19,625 bases of DNA, taken from assembly GCA_964549075.1 (NCBI GenBank), contig CAZJUB010000021.1:1-19625 (forward strand). Direction: 5' to 3'. Both the position numbers and the translations under genes were made by a program. The DNA comes from an uncultured archaeon (GTDB taxonomy: Archaea > Asgardarchaeota > Heimdallarchaeia > Heimdallarchaeales > Heimdallarchaeaceae). Numbering within the stretch: position 1 is the first letter of the stretch; each line of letters opens with the position of its first letter. Below are positions 3,115 through 8,807 of this stretch, piece by piece. The notes below the pieces were generated by a model. It was not told the origin of the DNA. It saw only the letters and a list, made by a program, of their open reading frames with translations, and searched no databases.

Positions 3115-3951
3115 TTATTCAATTAACATTGTAAAATCAAAGTTCTCTACAGAATGGGTTAAAGATCCAGAAGATATTAAATTAACACCTTTTAAGGTAT
3201 ACTGCTGTAGATTCTCCAAAGTTATATTGCCACTTAATTCTACTAAAACATCGGGATTAAACTCTCTAATCTTTGGAATTGCATGTTTAACTTCTTCAGG
3301 GGAGAAATTATCCAACATGATAATATCTGCTCCACTTTTGGCAGCTTCAATCGCTTCCTTCTCATTTTGAACCTCGAGCTCAATCTTCTTACTGAAACTT
3401 GTTTTTTCTTTAGCCAAAGAAATAGCTTCAGCAATAGAGTCAAAAGCAGCAAGGTGATTTTCTTTTAATAATATCATATCAGATAAATTAAACCGATGAG
3501 TGTCACCTCCACCTATAGTGATAGCATATTTATCATATTTACTCAAACCTGGCACTACTTTTCTTGTTCCACAAATTCGGAGACTTGGATTGCTTTGTCT
3601 AGCTAATTTTACCATTTTAGCTGTTTTTGTTGCAATTCCAGATAATCTACCTAAAATGTTTAACGAAACTCTTTCTGCTTGAAGTAAGGATTGAAATTTC
3701 CCACTAATAGTAGCAATTGCTACTCTAGTTTCCACTTCTGTTCCCTCTTCTACTAAAGGCTCAAATTTAGCTCCCACAATTTCAAAGATTTTTTGAATAA
3801 TAAAAAGTCCAGCAACAGTTCCTTCCTGTTTGGAGTAAATTGTTGCTTTAGCACTCTTAATTGGCACTAAAGAAGTGGTAATATCCCAATATGGTAAATC
3901 TTCTTTGAGCCATTTTTTAATATCATCTTCAATAAGAAAAGCAGGTATCAT
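3115..3951 (-). CDS. nadC: Nicotinate-nucleotide pyrophosphorylase (carboxylating), QPRTase
   Basis: WLKED..DITT, ERVSLN, GTRKVVPG, HRFNLSDMILLKENH, ELEV, IMLDN, ELSGNI; 12 bp downstream of nadA. Confidence 0.96.
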   Translation of the reverse strand: MIPAFLIEDDIKKWLKEDLPYWDITTSLVPIKSAKATIYSKQEGTVAGLFIIQKIFEIVGAKFEPLVEEGTEVETRVAIATISGKFQSLLQAERVSLNILGRLSGIATKTAKMVKLARQSNPSLRICGTRKVVPGLSKYDKYAITIGGGDTHRFNLSDMILLKENHLAAFDSIAEAISLAKEKTSFSKKIELEVQNEKEAIEAAKSGADIIMLDNFSPEEVKHAIPKIREFNPDVLVELSGNITLENLQQYTLKGVNLISSGSLTHSVENFDFTMLIE

Positions 3952-3963
3952 TCTATAACTTCC

Positions 3964-4992
3964 TTAATATTTCAACATATTGCTTACAGCTTTGTAAGCT
4001 TTTTTACGAATTTCTTCATCTAAATCTATAATGTTCTCATCGGTTGGATTCTCAAGAGCTTTTAGAGTTGCTGCAAGATCGTTTCTTTTCATACTAACAC
4101 ATATCATCTTACTGTCTTCAAACTGAACATCTGGAAATTCAATTTTCATCCTATCGATAAAGCCTTGTTCAGTTAGAAAAAGTACTTTCTCTCCTTTCTT
4201 AGCTTGAGCTGAAAAACGATGCATATCTCCTGTTCCACCGATTAAATCAACAGCATCTACAACTTCTGGACGACATTCAAAATGAGCAAAAGTTTTGACA
4301 TCATCTTTATTAGCAATTAATTTCTCCAATCTCTTTATAGTCATTGCATCATGAGTTCTACAATGTCCTGGCCATGTTATAATATTCTTTCCTGTAATCT
4401 TTGCAAGATTCTCCCCCATATTCTGATCTGGGATAAAAATTATAGTATCTGTTTCAAGACTATCCACAATTTTTCTTGCATTTGCAGATGTACAGCAAAT
4501 ATCAGATTCAGCTTTTACATCCGCATTAGTATTTACATAACATACAACTGGAACTCCGGGATTTTCTTTCTTAAGTTTTCTTACATCTTCTGCACTAATT
4601 GAATCTGCTAAAGTACAGTCTCTACCTTTTTCAGGTACCAATATCAGTTTTTCAGGATTCAGAATTTTTACTGATTCTGCCATAAAATCGACACCACAGA
4701 ACAAAATTCTCTTCTCTCTGATTTCTGTAGCCTTCTTTGCTAAAGCAAGAGAATCCCCCACAATATCAGCTATTCCAAAAACAATATCTGCTGATTGATA
4801 TGAATGAGCTAGTATTTTAAATCCTTTATCATGTTTTAATTTATTTATTCTTAAAGTATAAGGTGCAATTGATTCACATGCACTTTTACTCCATCCCAAT
4901 TTACTCAGTTTTGAATATAATCGGTCTACTTCTTGCTCCAGCAATGTTCTATCTCCTTCAGCGACTTTCGGAGCGTCCTCTATAATAACCAT
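3964..4992 (-). CDS. nadA: Quinolinate synthase (4Fe-4S)
   Basis: LAHSYQ, GDSLAL, FCGVDFMAES, CYVNT, CCTSANA, AHFEC and three cluster Cys (DCTLA, GHCRTH, ICVSMK). Start placed at ATG 4992 (MVIIED) rather than TTG 5082 because a TTTAAATA box lies about 30 bp upstream of it and the extra 30 residues look non-homologous. Confidence 0.95.
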   Translation of the reverse strand: MVIIEDAPKVAEGDRTLLEQEVDRLYSKLSKLGWSKSACESIAPYTLRINKLKHDKGFKILAHSYQSADIVFGIADIVGDSLALAKKATEIREKRILFCGVDFMAESVKILNPEKLILVPEKGRDCTLADSISAEDVRKLKKENPGVPVVCYVNTNADVKAESDICCTSANARKIVDSLETDTIIFIPDQNMGENLAKITGKNIITWPGHCRTHDAMTIKRLEKLIANKDDVKTFAHFECRPEVVDAVDLIGGTGDMHRFSAQAKKGEKVLFLTEQGFIDRMKIEFPDVQFEDSKMICVSMKRNDLAATLKALENPTDENIIDLDEEIRKKAYKAVSNMLKY

Positions 4993-5021
4993 CTTCAGTC
5001 GGGGATTATTTTGTAAAATTG

Positions 5022-5029
5022 TATTTAAA
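5022..5029 (-). promoter_or_regulatory. TATA-like box for nadAC
   Basis: Minus strand reads TTTAAATA, 30-37 bp upstream of the ATG at 4992. Confidence 0.45.
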
Positions 5030-5127
5030 GAGTGTTCGTTTAGGGACAAAATTGAATGAAAATTACGTAAAAGAGACATCAAACCTTATAAAATAGCTGT
5101 TTAGCATAGTAATTTCATAAAATATAA

Positions 5128-5221
5128 GCAAACTTTGCCTATACTTTTTACTCAAAATTTGCATATTTTTGCGTTTTTAGCAATTCTGTATACAGTTTAC
5201 ATATTTTCAGATGAGTAAAAA
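5128..5221. promoter_or_regulatory. Cluster of dyads in the nadA / NADK-HTH divergent spacer (candidate operators)
   Basis: GCAAACTTTGC (5128-5138); TCAAAATTTGC (5152-5162); CTGTATACAG (5186-5195); inverted pair TTTTTACTCA (5145-5154) / TGAGTAAAAA (5212-5221). Confidence 0.4.
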
Positions 5222-5285
5222 TTAAAGGAAAAGACTAAATATGTCTTTAACATATAATAAAAAGAACAAAAACTTGTTGATAAAA

Positions 5286-6332
5286 ATGAATTTAGCTCTT
5301 TATATTGCAGAGGAACACACTGCTCAAATTTTTGCAAAGGAAATCAAAGAGGTTTTAAAGGAATTAGATCCAGCACTAAGTATTATTGAGATTCAGGATA
5401 AAGAGCTAACAAAAACTAATTGGGAAAATGAGATCCAAGATTTTGCAGTTCATCGTATAAACTGTTTAATAGCAGTGGGAGGAACTGGAACTTTTCTTAG
5501 AGCAATTTTTCTCTGTAGAAGTTCAATTCCAATAGTATCCGCTTCTTCTGAGAGTATTAGTTTTTTCACAGAAATCAACCCAATTAATTTACAAGAAACT
5601 TTACAAGCTCTTCTCTCGCGAAAATATGATGTTGACAACTACAATCAAATTGTCTATCAAGATAGGAGAAGTAATTTTTCAGTACCAGCTCTCAATGAAA
5701 TAGCAATTTTCCCCAAAGACTCAGCATTGTTGATGAATTACACACTTATAATTGATAAAAACCAATTATATCGAGGACGAGCCGATGGCCTAATTATATC
5801 CACTGCTCTAGGAAGTACAGGATATGCATTATCTTCAGGTGGTCCTATAGCTTTTGGGAATCCTGACATTCATATGGTTGTACCTGTAAACCCGTTAAGT
5901 AAAGATCACATACCCTTAGTAATTCCATCAAATTCTGAAATAAACCTCACTAATGTGAAATCTAGGTCCGAAATCGAAGTAATAATTGATGGGCAATTAC
6001 GATTACAAGCTGATGATGAAATCTTTGTTAGGAAATATTCATCTACAGCAAAAATTATGCGTTTCCAAGCAAAACGAAATATTTTAGCTAAACTACGTAA
6101 CCGTTTAGTAGAGCTCGATCTTCGCAATCTCCAAGGTGTCCCTCCATCAGCAAAATATATTTTCAAACTTCTTTTGACAGATGGAGAAATGACACAAAAA
6201 GAATTAATAGAAAGTACAGGTTTACCCAATCGTACTGTCAGAAATGCATTAGCTATACTTAAAGGAAAGGGAGTAATCAACCAAAGACCGCATTTAAGAG
6301 ATGCAAGACAATCCATTTACTATGTCGAATGA
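5286..6332 (+). CDS. NAD kinase-like domain fused to C-terminal winged HTH (probable pseudo-kinase regulator)
   Basis: LIAVGGTGTFLRA (GGDGT equivalent), ALNEI, ADGLIISTALGSTGYALSSGGP, IIDGQ; wHTH from about 6138 (VPPSAKYIFKLLLTDGEMTQKELIESTGLPNRTVRNALAILKGKGVI...RDARQSIY). Start could be 5241 or 5286; TATAATAA at 5253-5260 favours a near-leaderless start at 5286. Confidence 0.9.
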   Translation: MNLALYIAEEHTAQIFAKEIKEVLKELDPALSIIEIQDKELTKTNWENEIQDFAVHRINCLIAVGGTGTFLRAIFLCRSSIPIVSASSESISFFTEINPINLQETLQALLSRKYDVDNYNQIVYQDRRSNFSVPALNEIAIFPKDSALLMNYTLIIDKNQLYRGRADGLIISTALGSTGYALSSGGPIAFGNPDIHMVVPVNPLSKDHIPLVIPSNSEINLTNVKSRSEIEVIIDGQLRLQADDEIFVRKYSSTAKIMRFQAKRNILAKLRNRLVELDLRNLQGVPPSAKYIFKLLLTDGEMTQKELIESTGLPNRTVRNALAILKGKGVINQRPHLRDARQSIYYVE

Positions 6333-6447: not shown

Positions 6448-7140
6448 TTGAATCAGATGACCCAGTTATCCTTGAAGAAAATAACTGTTCTTGGAACAAC
6501 TGGATCAGGCAAAACTACATTTCTAGAAGCTCTTTTTGGAAATATTCAAAGAAATGATGTAGCAAGGAAACTCTTCAAAGAAGTAAGTAATAATCTGGAT
6601 TTTACACCTCTAAGATACAATAATTTTACATCTAGTACAACGACAATATCACTAAATGTTGTAAATTCTGTAATCATTTTAACTCGATTTAACAAAGTGA
6701 TTCTTAAAAAATATGCGGATATTGAGACTTTGGATTTCGAATCTATAGATTCAGCTTTTCAAGTAATATTCAATGATCCAGCTGGGCAAGATAGATTTGA
6801 TTTCATGCAGGATATAGCAATTAAGGGAGCAGACTTAGTTATTATAATGGCAGATGGTACCAACATATCTTCGTTGGAGAAAATCGTCCATTATCTGGAA
6901 ATGGTAAATCTAGAAGAAACTCGGAAACAAAGAGAAATCCCAGTGATCATTTTTATTAATAAAAGTGATTTACAAGAAAAAGGTGTTTATTTAGGGATGG
7001 AGGTAGCAGAACGAATTGTTTATTCATCTATTGTCGATAGGAAGATATTGTTCTATGAAACTACTAATTATGACGCCAATTGTTATCAACTACCTCTGAC
7101 AATTATCTTTAACTATCTTGCAATGCAAGCGTATAGCTAA
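6448..7140 (+). CDS. Small Ras-superfamily GTPase (MglA/Rab/Arf-like, Asgard type)
   Basis: G1 GTTGSGKTT, G2 STTTISLN, G3 NDPAGQDRF, G4 FINKSD, G5-like YETT; long insertions around G2. Confidence 0.9.
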   Translation: MNQMTQLSLKKITVLGTTGSGKTTFLEALFGNIQRNDVARKLFKEVSNNLDFTPLRYNNFTSSTTTISLNVVNSVIILTRFNKVILKKYADIETLDFESIDSAFQVIFNDPAGQDRFDFMQDIAIKGADLVIIMADGTNISSLEKIVHYLEMVNLEETRKQREIPVIIFINKSDLQEKGVYLGMEVAERIVYSSIVDRKILFYETTNYDANCYQLPLTIIFNYLAMQAYS

Positions 7141-7194: not shown

Positions 7195-7563
7195 ATGAAA
7201 AGCGTCAAACAGGTTACATTTAATTTTACTGAGAGTAGAAGAATCAAAAATTATGCGCAAAAAAATAATCTTGAAGAAAAAGAAGTGTTATCTAAATATC
7301 CTGAAGTGATGCATATAATTTTTCAAGCATGGAAGAAAAATCATTCTACTTCTCAAGAAATAAGTTTCAGAGATTTCTTTCTACAAGTAATGAAATTCGC
7401 AGAATTTGAGTTTCGTTTGAAAGAAAGGAAAGGCGACTTGAAACTGATAAATGAACATGTCAAGATCTTAAGAGACGCTTTAGAAGAATATGAACAGGAT
7501 TATGCTACTGTGATTAAAATTGAACAAATAGTTAAAGAACTTGCTGGAGGTACTATGCCTTGA
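7195..7563 (+). CDS. Hypothetical protein (helical, charged)
   Basis: 122-aa ATG ORF, co-directional with neighbours, stop overlaps the next start; no recognised motif. Confidence 0.75.
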   Translation: MKSVKQVTFNFTESRRIKNYAQKNNLEEKEVLSKYPEVMHIIFQAWKKNHSTSQEISFRDFFLQVMKFAEFEFRLKERKGDLKLINEHVKILRDALEEYEQDYATVIKIEQIVKELAGGTMP

Positions 7564-8009
7564 AAATCGGAACTACTATGTTCACTGTGAAGTTCAAAGA
7601 TAAAGTTCCTTGTGATGACGAAAATATCTTAGCTAGTGATCTTGCTTATTATCTCTATTATCTTAATATAATCCCTAAAGAAATTATAGAGTGGACTTTA
7701 GAAGATATATCCAAAAAAAGACTTGAAGATGAGACGATATTTACAGAGATGAGTAAAGAATATTCAAATTTATTCAAAGAATATGCTCTTATAAGATTAA
7801 AAGCAAACGAGCTTTATGAGAGAAATCGTACTGTAGCTCTAACAATGGGATTGTTAAGACAAAAATTAATTAAGTTCAAGGAAAATAATATAGAACTTCC
7901 TCTAGATTATGATAAATCAATTGAGATTGTAGAAAATTTCATCTATAGATATTTGACAAAGAAACAAGATAAAAGACTGATCGAGCAAGTCGTTTTTCAA
8001 GAACGATGA
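7560..8009 (+). CDS. Hypothetical protein (helical)
   Basis: 149-aa ORF; TTG start overlaps the upstream TGA (TTGA) and follows GGAGGT (7546-7551). Confidence 0.75.
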   Translation: MKIGTTMFTVKFKDKVPCDDENILASDLAYYLYYLNIIPKEIIEWTLEDISKKRLEDETIFTEMSKEYSNLFKEYALIRLKANELYERNRTVALTMGLLRQKLIKFKENNIELPLDYDKSIEIVENFIYRYLTKKQDKRLIEQVVFQER

Positions 8010-8035
8010 AAGCCTATAATCTCTAAGTATTACAG

Positions 8036-8071
8036 ACCTTTTAGTGAAGGTTTCAACCTTCTTAACAAGGT
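8036..8071. repeat. 36-bp dyad directly upstream of recombinase (candidate recombination/binding site)
   Basis: ACCTT-TTAGT-GAAGGTT-TC-AACCTTC-TTAAC-AAGGT; perfect 7-bp inner arms around a central TC, with 5-bp outer arms on the same axis. Confidence 0.7.
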
Positions 8072-8075
8072 TAAT

Positions 8076-8807
8076 ATGATCCGCTGTGTAATTTATGTGA
8101 GAACATCAACCGCTGACCAAGAATCAGGGTTAGAGACTCAAATTGATGATGTTTCTGCGAAAATCTACCAAGCAGGAGATCGCGAAATAGTTAAGATAAT
8201 TCGAGATGAAGATACTCCTGGTGATAGTGATCCTGAATACAGAGAGGGATTTACAGAAGTACTTGAAATGGCTAGAAACGGTGATTTTGAAGAGCTCTGG
8301 AGTCAATCTAGAGACAGACTTTCCAGAGATGTAGATATTTTGGGATATATTAGAATCTTACTTAAAAAGAAGGAAGTATCGATTATCTGTCTAGATGATG
8401 AAGATAATAAAGCAATTGCCAGAGTAAAAGATCTATTTGGGGAAATGGAATTAGAAAAATATCGTGAAAAACGATACAAAGGCATGTTACGAAGGATAAA
8501 TGAGAAAAAAGTAATGTCTAGACCACCTTTTGGTTATGCTGTAGATGATGAAGGCAATTTGACAATAGATGAAAGTAAAAGAGGACTTATAAGAAGACTT
8601 TTTGGAGAATTCGATAATCCGTTTTCATCACTTAAAACTTTGAGTATGAAGTATAATATTCCAGTCTCTACACTTCGAAATATTAGATCTAATCCCATTT
8701 ATCGTACTGGAGAAGTCAGATGGGCTGGAAAAATAGCTTATTTCGTTGAACCTATAGTACCTGAAGATAAGGATCAACTCCTCAATACTGATTGGACTGG
8801 GAGTTGA
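8076..8807 (+). CDS. Serine recombinase (catalytic domain plus short recombinase DNA-binding domain)
   Basis: YVRTSTADQ (catalytic Ser), R..F..VL, SRDRLSRD, helix E, RPPFGY linker, STLRNIRSNPIYRTG...EPIV typical of the large-serine-recombinase recombinase domain; 243 aa. Confidence 0.93.
   Translation: MIRCVIYVRTSTADQESGLETQIDDVSAKIYQAGDREIVKIIRDEDTPGDSDPEYREGFTEVLEMARNGDFEELWSQSRDRLSRDVDILGYIRILLKKKEVSIICLDDEDNKAIARVKDLFGEMELEKYREKRYKGMLRRINEKKVMSRPPFGYAVDDEGNLTIDESKRGLIRRLFGEFDNPFSSLKTLSMKYNIPVSTLRNIRSNPIYRTGEVRWAGKIAYFVEPIVPEDKDQLLNTDWTGS

What the first reader, a model, noticed from the sequence alone, without database searches (positions are those of the whole stretch)
5286..6332. NAD kinase with substituted catalytic Asp fused to a wHTH, head-to-head with nadAC: candidate pseudo-enzyme NAD(P)-sensing transcription factor
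Seen: the NAD-kinase GGDGT motif reads GGTGT (codon ACT at 5484-5486, two changes from GAT, so a single miscall is unlikely). The GxLGFL motif has decayed to SESISFF. The NAD-contacting NE motif and the Gly-rich DG...ST..GSTGY..S.GGP motif are intact. A roughly 65-aa archaeal wHTH is fused at the C-terminus, and the gene is divergent from de novo NAD synthesis genes. Established: the GGDG Asp is essential for NAD kinase catalysis, and known NAD regulators (NadR, NiaR, NrtR, NadQ, Rex) use other folds, with NrtR a precedent for an enzyme domain reused as sensor. Inference: a kinase fold repurposed as an NAD/NADP sensor that controls nadAC. I recall similar NADK-HTH fusions in Nitrososphaerota, so the architecture may be catalogued, but I know of no functional description.
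Basis: partly seen in the sequence, partly recalled or inferred. Interest (0 to 1): 0.85.

Follow-up and report, generated by a model that had tools for sequence, protein, structure and literature searches.

The report
Dead NAD kinase turned NAD-gene regulator
This archaeal gene encodes an NAD-kinase look-alike that has lost its catalytic residues, gained a DNA-binding tail, and most likely acts as a switch for the cell's NAD-making genes, a kind of regulator I found no description of in archaea.

Summary
Window 5286-6332(+) encodes a 348-aa protein with both NAD-kinase domains, GGTGT in place of GGDGT, SESISFF in place of GxLGFL, intact NE and Gly-rich motifs, and a C-terminal winged helix. 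It lies head-to-head with nadA-nadC.

The genome (a Heimdallarchaeaceae MAG) also has a canonical NAD kinase on another contig.

The fusion belongs to a broad archaeal family:
- GGDG is intact in 18 of 242 fusions, against 66 of 72 unfused kinases.
- The NE and Gly-rich motifs, which I recall as the NAD-contacting ones, are kept in 242 of 242 fusions.

Context in distant lineages:
- nadA is the divergent neighbour in 23 of 26 Heimdallarchaeaceae loci.
- nadA is the divergent neighbour in 16 of 20 other Asgard genomes sampled.
- Other lineages have nicotinate phosphoribosyltransferase or a NiaP-like transporter beside the gene.

A 13-bp palindrome, GGCAA-N3-TTGCC, sits in these spacers (16 of 16 of the other-Asgard nadA spacers). 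In this window it is AGCAAACTTTGCC at 5127-5139. A similar site precedes nadM elsewhere in the genome.

Best reading: a catalytically dead, NAD(P)-sensing local transcription factor of NAD metabolism. The ligand and the sign of regulation are inferred, not shown. Six full-text searches found no published description.

The parts
5286..6332 (+). Gene for the 348-aa NADK-like + wHTH protein (stop codon included)
   Evidence: ORF; Pfam; orthologues of 348 aa; AF2 model
5286..6071 (+). NAD-kinase-like sensor domain (about residues 1-262)
   Evidence: Pfam PF01513 + PF20143; Foldseek target TM-scores 0.79-0.87 to solved NADKs
5478..5492 (+). Degenerate motif I: GGTGT in place of GGDGT. T67 (codon ACT, 5484-5486) replaces the catalytic Asp
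   Evidence: Read; aligned to the canonical NADK
5547..5567 (+). Degenerate motif II: SESISFF in place of GxxGFL
   Evidence: The motif is intact in 34 of 242 fusions against 65 of 72 unfused NADKs
5694..5699 (+). Intact NE motif (N137-E138)
   Evidence: N137 is invariant in alignment A3; N[ED] is present in 242 of 242 fusions
5784..5846 (+). Intact DG...ST..GSTGY..S.GGP motif (D167-P187)
   Evidence: present in 242 of 242 fusions
6135..6329 (+). C-terminal winged helix-turn-helix (about residues 284-348) with the family signature PPSAK...LTQKE...LP.RTVR.AL
   Evidence: Weak Pfam wHTH hits; conserved across the family; AF2 helices 287-299, 304-311, 315-327 and wing strands 331-335 and 343-347
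4993..5285 (.). Divergent nadA / regulator spacer (293 bp)
   Evidence: Conserved nadA ATG at 4992; spacer alignment
5127..5139 (.). Predicted main operator O2: AGCAAACTTTGCC (one mismatch to GGCAA-N3-TTGCC)
   Evidence: At most 1 mismatch in 15 of 23 and at most 2 in 22 of 23 orthologous spacers, at a fixed distance from the nadA ATG; shuffles give a mean of 0.045 hits at <=1 mismatch. The same motif occurs in distant lineages. It is the best PWM hit in the genome: 27.0 bits against 20.6 for the next
5044..5056 (.). Degenerate promoter-proximal site O1: GGACAAAATTGAA (4 mismatches), 13 nt from the nadA TATA box
   Evidence: Conserved block. The homologous position reads GGCCAAAATTGCA (2 mismatches) in L023 and L030. 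The same TATA-gap-operator geometry is seen in L046-L052 and in other Asgard loci
5151..5163 (.). Weak third site: CTCAAAATTTGCA (3 mismatches)
   Evidence: Better copies lie at the same place in L027 and L030. Weak evidence
5022..5030 (-). Putative nadA TATA box (CTTTAAATA on the minus strand), about 30 nt upstream of the nadA ATG
   Evidence: Conserved in all 21 aligned spacers, with single-base variants in 6 of them. The promoter role is an inference from the archaeal TATA consensus, which I recall
5187..5201 (.). Second inverted repeat, TGTAT-N5-TTACA, conserved only within the genus; role unknown
3964..4992 (-). nadA (quinolinate synthase), predicted target
   Evidence: Pfam NadA 328.5 bits; NCBIfam NF006878 321.3 bits against a cut-off of 294
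3115..3951 (-). nadC (quinolinate phosphoribosyltransferase), co-directional with nadA and probably in the same operon
   Evidence: TIGR00078 313.1 bits against a cut-off of 198.4

Best explanation
The gene encodes a ligand-sensing transcription factor of NAD metabolism. It was built from a catalytically dead NAD-kinase fold fused to a C-terminal winged helix.

Proposed mechanism:
- The kinase-like domain keeps the pocket that binds the NAD(P) dinucleotide (NE and Gly-rich motifs). It has lost the phosphoryl-transfer loop (GGDGT to GGTGT) and the GxxGFL motif. It therefore reports the NAD(P) level instead of making NADP, which the separate canonical NAD kinase does.
- As a dimer or tetramer, like NAD kinases, it places its wHTH domains on GGCAA-N3-TTGCC palindromes between the divergent nadA-nadC and regulator promoters. 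In this window these are O2 at 5127-5139 and a degenerate O1 at 5044-5056.
- In this genome it probably also binds a site in front of nadM.
- I think it most likely represses these genes and itself when the dinucleotide is bound.

Shown by computation: the architecture, the motif states, the paralogy with a canonical kinase, the conserved gene linkage and the conserved palindrome.
Inferred: DNA binding by this protein, the identity of the ligand, lack of kinase activity, and the sign of regulation. I put repression at about 0.55-0.6, because sites upstream of BRE/TATA can also mean activation.
For: 1. Architecture and fold.
2. Dead catalytic motifs with intact NE and Gly-rich motifs.
3. Family-wide motif states: GGDG is intact in 18 of 242 fusions against 66 of 72 unfused NADKs. 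GxxG[FY] is intact in 34 of 242 against 65 of 72. NE is present in 242 of 242 and the Gly-rich motif in 242 of 242.
4. All NCBIfam NAD-kinase equivalogs score far below their cut-offs; the best is 145.6 bits against 326.
5. A canonical NADK lies at G000:C38:13239-14093. It co-occurs with the fusion in 23 of 26 fusion-bearing Heimdallarchaeaceae genomes. It was also found in 14 of the 20 sampled other Asgard genomes at E<=1e-30.
6. Linkage to NAD genes:
   - nadA is divergent in 23 of 26 family loci.
   - nadA is divergent in 16 of 20 other Asgard loci, with pncB adjacent in 3 more.
   - nadA is divergent in 11 of the 80 metagenome loci kept: with nadC and nadX in L046-L048 and L050-L052, and without them in L066, L067, L069, L082 and L085.
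   - pncB lies downstream in L061 and L072, at 468.6 and 476.8 bits against a cut-off of 243.
   - A PF00083 / aromatic-acid-symporter-like MFS transporter lies beside the gene: divergent in L055, L058, L059 and L064, and downstream in L060. This matches the description of the niacin transporter NiaP in PMC2330245 (passages read).
7. Operator:
   - GGCAA-N3-TTGCC with at most 1 mismatch occurs in 16 of 16 nadA spacers of the other Asgard loci, and is perfect in 14. Of 26 hits in those 20 loci, 23 lie in the spacers. In 7 loci there are two sites exactly 29 bp apart.
   - In the metagenome loci, 15 of 29 hits lie in the 26,239 nt upstream of the regulator gene, out of 602,045 nt scanned. Other intergenic hits sit directly in front of pncB, the MFS gene or larA.
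   - In the Heimdallarchaeaceae spacers, 15 of 23 have a site with at most 1 mismatch at a fixed position; shuffles give a mean of 0.045 hits.
8. In G000, a 1-mismatch site (C92:10125-10137) lies about 45-57 nt upstream of the nadM ATG. A related palindrome, GG[AT]AA-N3-TT[AT]CC, is at -56 in 14 of 28 orthologous nadM upstream regions.
9. The putative recognition helix LP.RTVR.AL is nearly invariant across the family, which fits a shared operator.
10. Precedent: archaeal RbkR is a riboflavin kinase fused to a wHTH (PMC5397151, passages read).
Against: - There is no experiment of any kind. No RNA run was available.
- In this window the main site has one mismatch and lies about 95 nt from the putative nadA TATA box. 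The promoter-proximal site has 4 mismatches, so the geometry is looser than in other lineages.
- The largest metagenome cluster (44 of 67 full-length loci; PfkB-like kinase upstream, CTP synthase downstream) shows neither NAD neighbours nor the palindrome.
- Asp is kept at motif position 3 in 193 of 242 fusions, and GGDG is fully intact in 18. The fusion alone therefore does not prove loss of activity.
- wHTH Pfam hits are all below their gathering scores.
- Small stand-alone proteins with a related wHTH exist in many Asgard genomes, including G000:C9:61316-61510. They could be the true binders of the palindrome.
- nadX, nadE and the canonical NADK of G000 have no site, even at 2 mismatches.
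- The nadM site differs from the consensus at the C/G position in most relatives.
- The roles of the NE and Gly-rich motifs in NAD contact, and of the GGDG Asp in catalysis, are recalled from the NADK structural literature and were not checked here.
Confidence: 0.7

Rival explanations
1. Bifunctional trigger enzyme, like RbkR or NadR: the protein is still an NAD (or NADH / polyphosphate-dependent) kinase and also regulates transcription.
For: RbkR is an active kinase fused to a wHTH (PMC5397151, passages read). 18 of 242 fusions keep GGDG and 193 of 242 keep the Asp. The NE and Gly-rich motifs, recalled as NAD-contacting, are intact.
Against: This protein has no Asp at or next to the catalytic position (GGTGT) and lacks GxxGFL. 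A canonical NADK co-occurs in 23 of 26 family genomes. RbkR and RibK, by contrast, never co-occur (PMC5397151). NCBIfam NADK models score less than half of their cut-offs.
Confidence: 0.07
2. The protein is not a transcription factor. It is a divergent metabolic or scaffolding paralogue of NAD kinase whose winged helix mediates protein contacts. Another protein, for example the small stand-alone wHTH paralogues, binds the palindromes.
For: wHTH Pfam hits are below their thresholds. Stand-alone relatives of the wHTH exist in 73-141-aa open frames, at about 69-76 bits in the rows listed. The big marine cluster has no operator or NAD context.
Against: The palindrome co-travels with the fusion gene across lineages whose proteins are only 31-40% identical, whatever the NAD gene next to it: nadA, pncB, the MFS gene or larA. 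It often overlaps the fusion gene's own upstream region. The putative recognition helix is nearly invariant. The AF2 model shows a standard DNA-binding wHTH topology.
Confidence: 0.1
3. It is a regulator, but it senses something other than NAD(P). Candidates are ATP/ADP, NaAD or NMN, quinolinate or niacin, or a redox ratio (NADH/NAD+) as Rex does.
For: The ligand is purely inferred. The regulon includes uptake and salvage genes (a NiaP-like transporter and pncB), as in the niacin-responsive NiaR regulon (PMC2330245, passages read).
Against: The motifs that stay invariant are the ones I recall as contacting the dinucleotide. The loop that I recall as holding the ATP phosphates is the part that decayed. 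No extra domain is present.
Confidence: 0.13

Closest known systems
RbkR (archaeal riboflavin kinase / regulator; PMC5397151)
   Same: An archaeal cofactor-pathway kinase domain fused to a wHTH. Palindromic operators lie in front of the biosynthesis and transporter genes of the same cofactor. It was discovered by the same kind of comparative genomics.
   Different: RbkR has an N-terminal wHTH and an unrelated kinase fold. It is catalytically active and is the only RibK in its genomes. Here the wHTH is C-terminal, the catalytic motifs are degenerate, and a canonical NADK co-occurs.
NrtR (bacterial Nudix-related NAD regulator; PMC2330246, abstract and listing seen)
   Same: An enzyme-derived effector domain fused to a C-terminal wHTH-like DNA-binding domain. 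It controls NAD synthesis, salvage and niaP genes.
   Different: NrtR has a Nudix fold and is bacterial; I recall its effector as ADP-ribose. There is no homology to the NADK fold.
Canonical NAD kinase (PF01513 + PF20143; e.g. PDB 1suw, 7qvs)
   Same: The same two-domain fold (target TM-scores 0.79-0.87). The NE and Gly-rich motifs are intact.
   Different: The GGDG Asp and the GxxGFL motif are lost, scores are below all NCBIfam equivalog cut-offs, and there is an extra 85-aa linker plus wHTH. No solved structure carries the fusion.
NadR and NiaR (bacterial NAD / niacin repressors)
   Same: Predicted regulon content: nadA-nadC, pncB, niaP and an NMN adenylyltransferase gene. End-product logic.
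   Different: Unrelated sensor folds, unrelated operators, bacterial. The NadR operator quoted in PMC2330245 is TGTTTAGTATACTAAACA.

Membership tests
NAD kinase (EC 2.7.1.23; Pfam PF01513 + PF20143) | Two-domain NADK fold | tested here: met
   PF01513 45.2 bits and PF20143 72.1 bits, both above their cut-offs. Foldseek to 7qvs, 1y3h and 1suw: E about 1e-22, target TM-scores 0.8-0.87.
NAD kinase (EC 2.7.1.23; Pfam PF01513 + PF20143) | GGDG motif with the catalytic Asp | tested here: not met
   GGTGT at 5478-5492. 66 of 72 unfused NADKs in my set keep GGDG.
NAD kinase (EC 2.7.1.23; Pfam PF01513 + PF20143) | Second motif GxxGFL | tested here: not met
   SESISFF at 5547-5567.
NAD kinase (EC 2.7.1.23; Pfam PF01513 + PF20143) | NE motif and Gly-rich DG..GSTAY..S.GGP motif | tested here: met
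   N137-E138 and D167-P187.
NAD kinase (EC 2.7.1.23; Pfam PF01513 + PF20143) | Score above an NCBIfam NAD-kinase equivalog cut-off | tested here: not met
   The best is NF002984 at 145.6 bits against a cut-off of 326. All 18 NADK models are below their cut-offs.
NAD kinase (EC 2.7.1.23; Pfam PF01513 + PF20143) | Phosphorylates NAD | not testable with these tools
   Needs an enzyme assay.
Bifunctional kinase-regulators of the RbkR type | Cofactor kinase domain fused to a wHTH | tested here: met
   The domain order is reversed relative to RbkR (PMC5397151).
Bifunctional kinase-regulators of the RbkR type | Catalytic residues conserved | tested here: not met
Bifunctional kinase-regulators of the RbkR type | Never co-occurs with the stand-alone enzyme | tested here: not met
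   A canonical NADK is present in 23 of 26 fusion-bearing family genomes and in G000 itself.
Bifunctional kinase-regulators of the RbkR type | Conserved operator in front of pathway and transporter genes | tested here: met
   GGCAA-N3-TTGCC in front of nadA, pncB, the MFS gene, larA and the regulator's own gene.
Winged helix-turn-helix DNA-binding domains (MarR/TrmB/ArsR-like) | Match to a curated wHTH model above its cut-off | tested here: not met
   HTH_24 21.0 bits against 21.9; TrmB 20.4 against 25.6; MarR_2 19.3 against 27.
Winged helix-turn-helix DNA-binding domains (MarR/TrmB/ArsR-like) | Three-helix bundle followed by a beta-hairpin wing | tested here: met
   AF2: helices 287-299, 304-311 and 315-327; strands 331-335 and 343-347; block pLDDT 85-94.
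Winged helix-turn-helix DNA-binding domains (MarR/TrmB/ArsR-like) | Binds DNA specifically | not testable with these tools
   Only inferred from the conserved palindrome.

The most novel reading that the evidence does not exclude
An ancient, archaea-wide family of NAD-kinase-derived pseudo-kinase transcription factors is the missing regulator of NAD homeostasis in Archaea. Its members occur in Asgard lineages and in records that sources name Vulcanisaeta, Nitrososphaerota, Woesearchaeota, Parvarchaeota and Njordarchaeia. The protein reads the NAD(P) pool through a kinase pocket that can no longer transfer phosphate. As a kinase-like oligomer it bridges paired GGCAA-N3-TTGCC operators, 29 bp apart in many Asgard genomes, to shut off de novo synthesis (nadA-nadC-nadX), salvage (pncB), uptake (a NiaP-like transporter), NMN adenylyltransferase and itself.
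Probability: 0.55. Interest if true: 0.85.

Novelty: new variant of a known kind. Interest (0 to 1): 0.76.

Why it matters
- Six full-text searches found no description of transcriptional control of NAD synthesis in Archaea. The four bacterial regulator families I recall (NadR, NiaR, NrtR, NadQ) were not tested for here.
- This finding supplies a concrete candidate regulator, a 13-bp operator and a predicted regulon. All can be tested with one purified protein and a few oligonucleotides.
- It would add NAD kinase to the short list of enzymes recycled into pseudo-enzyme sensors.
- It would correct a widespread database annotation. Sources call these proteins "NAD(+)/NADH kinase", so metabolic reconstructions may count two NAD kinases where there is one.
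- It would give a marker for spotting niacin uptake and salvage genes in uncultured archaea, including the Asgard relatives of eukaryotes.

Tried and rejected
- An RNA element in the spacer: Rfam at a permissive threshold gave only a plant miRNA model at 22 bits against a gathering score of 139.7, E 0.64. Rejected.
- A wider regulon in G000, searched with a regex and PWMs built from the Heimdallarchaeaceae spacers only: the next-best hits lay in coding sequence or next to unrelated genes. This led nowhere until the lineage-independent consensus was used.
- The conserved block next to the nadA TATA box as an N-terminal extension of NadA (ORF from TTG at 5082): rejected. The conserved ATG at 4992 is the start in 22 of 23 loci, and conservation upstream of it is not codon-like.
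- The in-frame TGA codons reported inside canonical NADK matches of some relatives: read as alignment run-on past the stop codon, not as recoding. Not followed further.
- The marine 332-aa cluster: I looked for the operator upstream of its PfkB-like gene. The few hits lie in coding sequence (Cys-x-x-Cys codons) and were discounted.
- Expression evidence: no RNA holder was listed.
- Complex prediction (homodimer) was not run. NAD kinases are textbook oligomers, so a pass would not have changed my odds.
- Literature: six full-text searches found no paper describing an NADK-wHTH regulator. I read passages of PMC5397151, PMC2330245, PMC2330246 and PMC8305020 only. All other papers were seen only as search listings. 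Supplementary files were not opened; those of PMC5397151 and PMC2330245, or subscription-journal papers, might mention the fusion.
Full report
**What is there**

Window 5286-6332(+) encodes a 348-aa protein. Pfam finds both NAD-kinase domains above their cut-offs: the N-domain at 45.2 bits and the C-domain at 72.1 bits. It also finds a cluster of sub-threshold winged-helix models at residues 284-342. All 18 NCBIfam NAD-kinase models score far below their cut-offs; the best is 145.6 bits against 326.

- GGTGT lies at 5478-5492, with ACT at 5484-5486.
- SESISFF lies at 5547-5567, where the genome's own canonical kinase has GKVGFL.
- NE is intact at 5694-5699.
- DG...GSTGY...GGP is intact at 5784-5846.

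AlphaFold2 with a 95-sequence family alignment gives pLDDT 90.4. It shows an NADK fold to about residue 260, a low-confidence linker helix at 266-281, and a classical three-helix-plus-wing domain at 287-347. Foldseek finds solved NAD kinases with target TM-scores of 0.79-0.87. No solved chain carries the C-terminal extension.

nadA and nadC lie divergently upstream. The nadA start at 4992 is a conserved ATG, so the spacer is 4993-5285.

**Organism and paralogues**

Sources name the closest relatives Candidatus Heimdallarchaeaceae. The genome (G000; 3.23 Mb, 89.7% complete) has three NADK-like genes:
- the fusion;
- a 284-aa canonical NAD kinase at C38:13239-14093, with GGDGT and GKVGFL intact;
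- a 371-aa NADK-family paralogue at C152.

Full-length orthologues of the fusion (E<1e-100) occur in 26 of 31 genomes of the family and in no other family of the class. 23 of those 26 also have the canonical kinase at a separate locus. The three exceptions are 81-89% complete. The fusion is therefore not the housekeeping NAD kinase.

**The wider family**

Searches of the two protein libraries find hundreds of 320-360-aa NADK + wHTH proteins. Sources name some of them Vulcanisaeta, Nitrososphaerota, Woesearchaeota, Parvarchaeota and Njordarchaeia. The C-terminal domain has a family signature: PPSAK...LTQKE...LP.RTVR.AL...D.RQ.Y.

I pooled all proteins in hand and split them with an HMM of that domain:

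| Feature | Fusions (n=242) | Unfused NADKs (n=72) |
|---|---|---|
| GGDG intact | 18 | 66 |
| GxxG[FY] intact | 34 | 65 |
| N[ED] motif | 242 | 71 |
| Gly-rich motif | 242 | 70 |

These sets are not dereplicated, and kin are not independent. Still, the pattern holds in every lineage. Most fusions keep the Asp (193 of 242) but lose the flanking glycines. The Heimdallarchaeaceae clade goes further, to GDTGT, GDAGT or GGTGT.

I recall from the NADK structural literature that GGDG holds the ATP phosphates and supplies the catalytic base, and that NE and the Gly-rich segment line the dinucleotide site. On that reading the phosphoryl-transfer half of the pocket has decayed and the NAD half is under selection.

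**Gene linkage**

Within the family, nadA is the divergent neighbour in 23 of 26 loci. This includes the other genera, where the downstream Ras-like GTPase synteny is already lost.

A metagenome scan used a wHTH-only alignment, so it was blind to context. It gave 565 relatives, of which 80 loci were kept. Among those:
- a divergent nadA-nadC-nadX operon in L046-L048 and L050-L052;
- a divergent nadA in L066, L067, L069, L082 and L085;
- a PF00083 / aromatic-acid-symporter-like MFS transporter beside the gene, divergent in L055, L058, L059 and L064 and downstream in L060;
- a downstream nicotinate phosphoribosyltransferase in L061 and L072, at 468.6 and 476.8 bits against a cut-off of 243.

The MFS features match the description of the niacin transporter NiaP in PMC2330245: PF00083, nearest to PcaK and BenK, related to SVOP.

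I then sampled 20 fusion-bearing Asgard genomes outside the family. They were picked from the score list before any context was seen. nadA is divergent in 16, pncB is adjacent in 3, and one has neither.

**The operator**

Aligning 21 orthologous spacers showed a footprint, AAGCAAnnnTTGCCTAT. It survives in other genera where the rest of the spacer is unalignable. Reading the spacers of distant lineages then showed the same palindrome in its perfect form, GGCAA-N3-TTGCC.

Counts:
- **Metagenome loci:** 29 hits with at most 1 mismatch in 602,045 nt. 15 of them fall in the 26,239 nt just upstream of the regulator gene. The remaining intergenic hits lie directly in front of pncB (L072), the MFS gene (L060, L063) and larA (L066).
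- **The 20 other Asgard loci:** 26 hits, 23 of them in the nadA-regulator spacers. All 16 such spacers have a site, perfect in 14. Seven have two sites exactly 29 bp apart, lying between the two divergent TATA-like boxes.
- **Heimdallarchaeaceae spacers:** 15 of 23 have a site with at most 1 mismatch, and 22 of 23 with at most 2, at a fixed 123-135 nt from the nadA ATG. Shuffles give a mean of 0.045 hits at <=1 mismatch.

In this window the site is AGCAAACTTTGCC at 5127-5139. It is the top PWM hit in the whole genome, at 27.0 bits against 20.6 for the next. A second, promoter-proximal site sits 13 nt from the nadA TATA box, as in the other lineages. It is degenerate here (GGACAAAATTGAA at 5044-5056, 4 mismatches) but better in relatives (GGCCAAAATTGCA).

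**Regulon in this genome**

Of 29 genome-wide sites with at most 1 mismatch, 22 are inside ORFs. The seven intergenic ones include the spacer site and C92:10125-10137, which lies about 45-57 nt upstream of the nadM ATG. A related palindrome, GG[AT]AA-N3-TT[AT]CC, occupies -56 in 14 of 28 orthologous nadM upstream regions, directly upstream of a TATA-like box. This is suggestive, but the C/G position differs.

nadX, nadE and the canonical NADK have no site, even at 2 mismatches. Two perfect sites on contig C153 flank a small Cys-rich ORF of unknown function.

**Mechanism**

The simplest account of all this is a local, ligand-sensing transcription factor. The dead kinase domain binds the NAD(P) dinucleotide. 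Oligomerisation through the kinase fold positions the wHTH pairs on one or two palindromes between the divergent promoters. Occupancy then changes transcription of nadA-nadC, of the regulator itself, and probably of nadM.

I favour repression with the dinucleotide as co-repressor, at about 0.55-0.6, for two reasons:
- It follows the end-product logic of NadR and NiaR.
- In some lineages the site lies 8-50 nt from the regulator's start codon.

Sites upstream of BRE/TATA are, from recall of TrmBL1 and SurR, also compatible with activation. The sign is therefore open.

**What weakens the case**

- There is no experiment and no RNA data.
- The largest metagenome cluster (44 loci) shows neither NAD context nor the operator.
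- Small stand-alone proteins with a related wHTH exist in many Asgard genomes, including this one. They could compete for or own the sites.
- Operator geometry in this particular window is looser than elsewhere.

**Novelty**

Six full-text searches found no description of this fusion as a regulator. Sources annotate it as "NAD(+)/NADH kinase", "ATP-NAD/AcoX kinase", "sugar kinase" or "winged helix-turn-helix transcriptional regulator".

The closest analogue in function is archaeal RbkR (PMC5397151, passages read). It differs in fold, in domain order, in being catalytically active, and in never co-occurring with the free enzyme. The closest in logic is bacterial NrtR, an inactive-enzyme sensor plus wHTH. 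I therefore rate this a new variant of a known kind. Supplements and subscription journals were not searchable, so prior mention cannot be excluded.

Noticed in passing
window 6448-7140 (+): A Ras/Roc/Arf-like small GTPase (Pfam Ras 38.9 bits) lies directly downstream of the regulator gene. The pairing is kept in most loci of the genus but lost in the other genera of the family.
   Followed up: partly
window 7195-8807 (+): Two ORFs without any Pfam family (122 and 149 aa) are followed by a serine recombinase (Resolvase N-domain, 65.5 bits). This may be the edge of a mobile element.
   Followed up: no
G000:C153:1542-1554 and 2131-2143: The only two perfect GGCAA-N3-TTGCC palindromes in the genome lie 589 bp apart. 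Both are intergenic and flank a 153-aa Cys-rich ORF (1576-2037) of unknown function. About 0.8 perfect sites are expected by my hand estimate from base composition.
   Followed up: partly
G000:C9:61316-61510 (-) and many Asgard genomes: Small stand-alone proteins (73-141-aa frames) carry a wHTH related to the fusion's C-terminal domain, at about 69-76 bits against the family wHTH profile in the rows listed. They are possible competitors or partners at the same operators.
   Followed up: partly
G000:C152:1821-2936 (-): A third NADK-family paralogue (371 aa) has an intact GGDGT but a long N-terminal half unlike canonical NADKs. Pfam N-domain 84 bits, C-domain 52.3 bits.
   Followed up: no
L066:3315-4583, L067:5346-6608, L156:1051-2310: A LarA-type lactate racemase gene follows the regulator gene. 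In L066 an operator-like site (1 mismatch) lies in front of it. From recall, LarA's nickel-pincer cofactor is made from nicotinic acid adenine dinucleotide, so this could be a real regulon member.
   Followed up: partly
L070-L125 (44-locus metagenome cluster, e.g. L100:3221-4090): A subfamily of mostly 332-aa proteins (motif GGD[KR]G) sits after a PfkB-like kinase gene in 27 of the 44 loci, usually at 32-41 nt. A gene of about 530 aa lies convergent downstream in many of them; in L100 it is CTP synthase. No NAD genes or operator were found nearby, so its role may differ.
   Followed up: partly
window 5187-5201: A second inverted repeat, TGTAT-N5-TTACA, is a perfect 9+1+9 palindrome in L023 and L025. 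It is conserved only within the genus and could be a second protein site or a leader hairpin.
   Followed up: no
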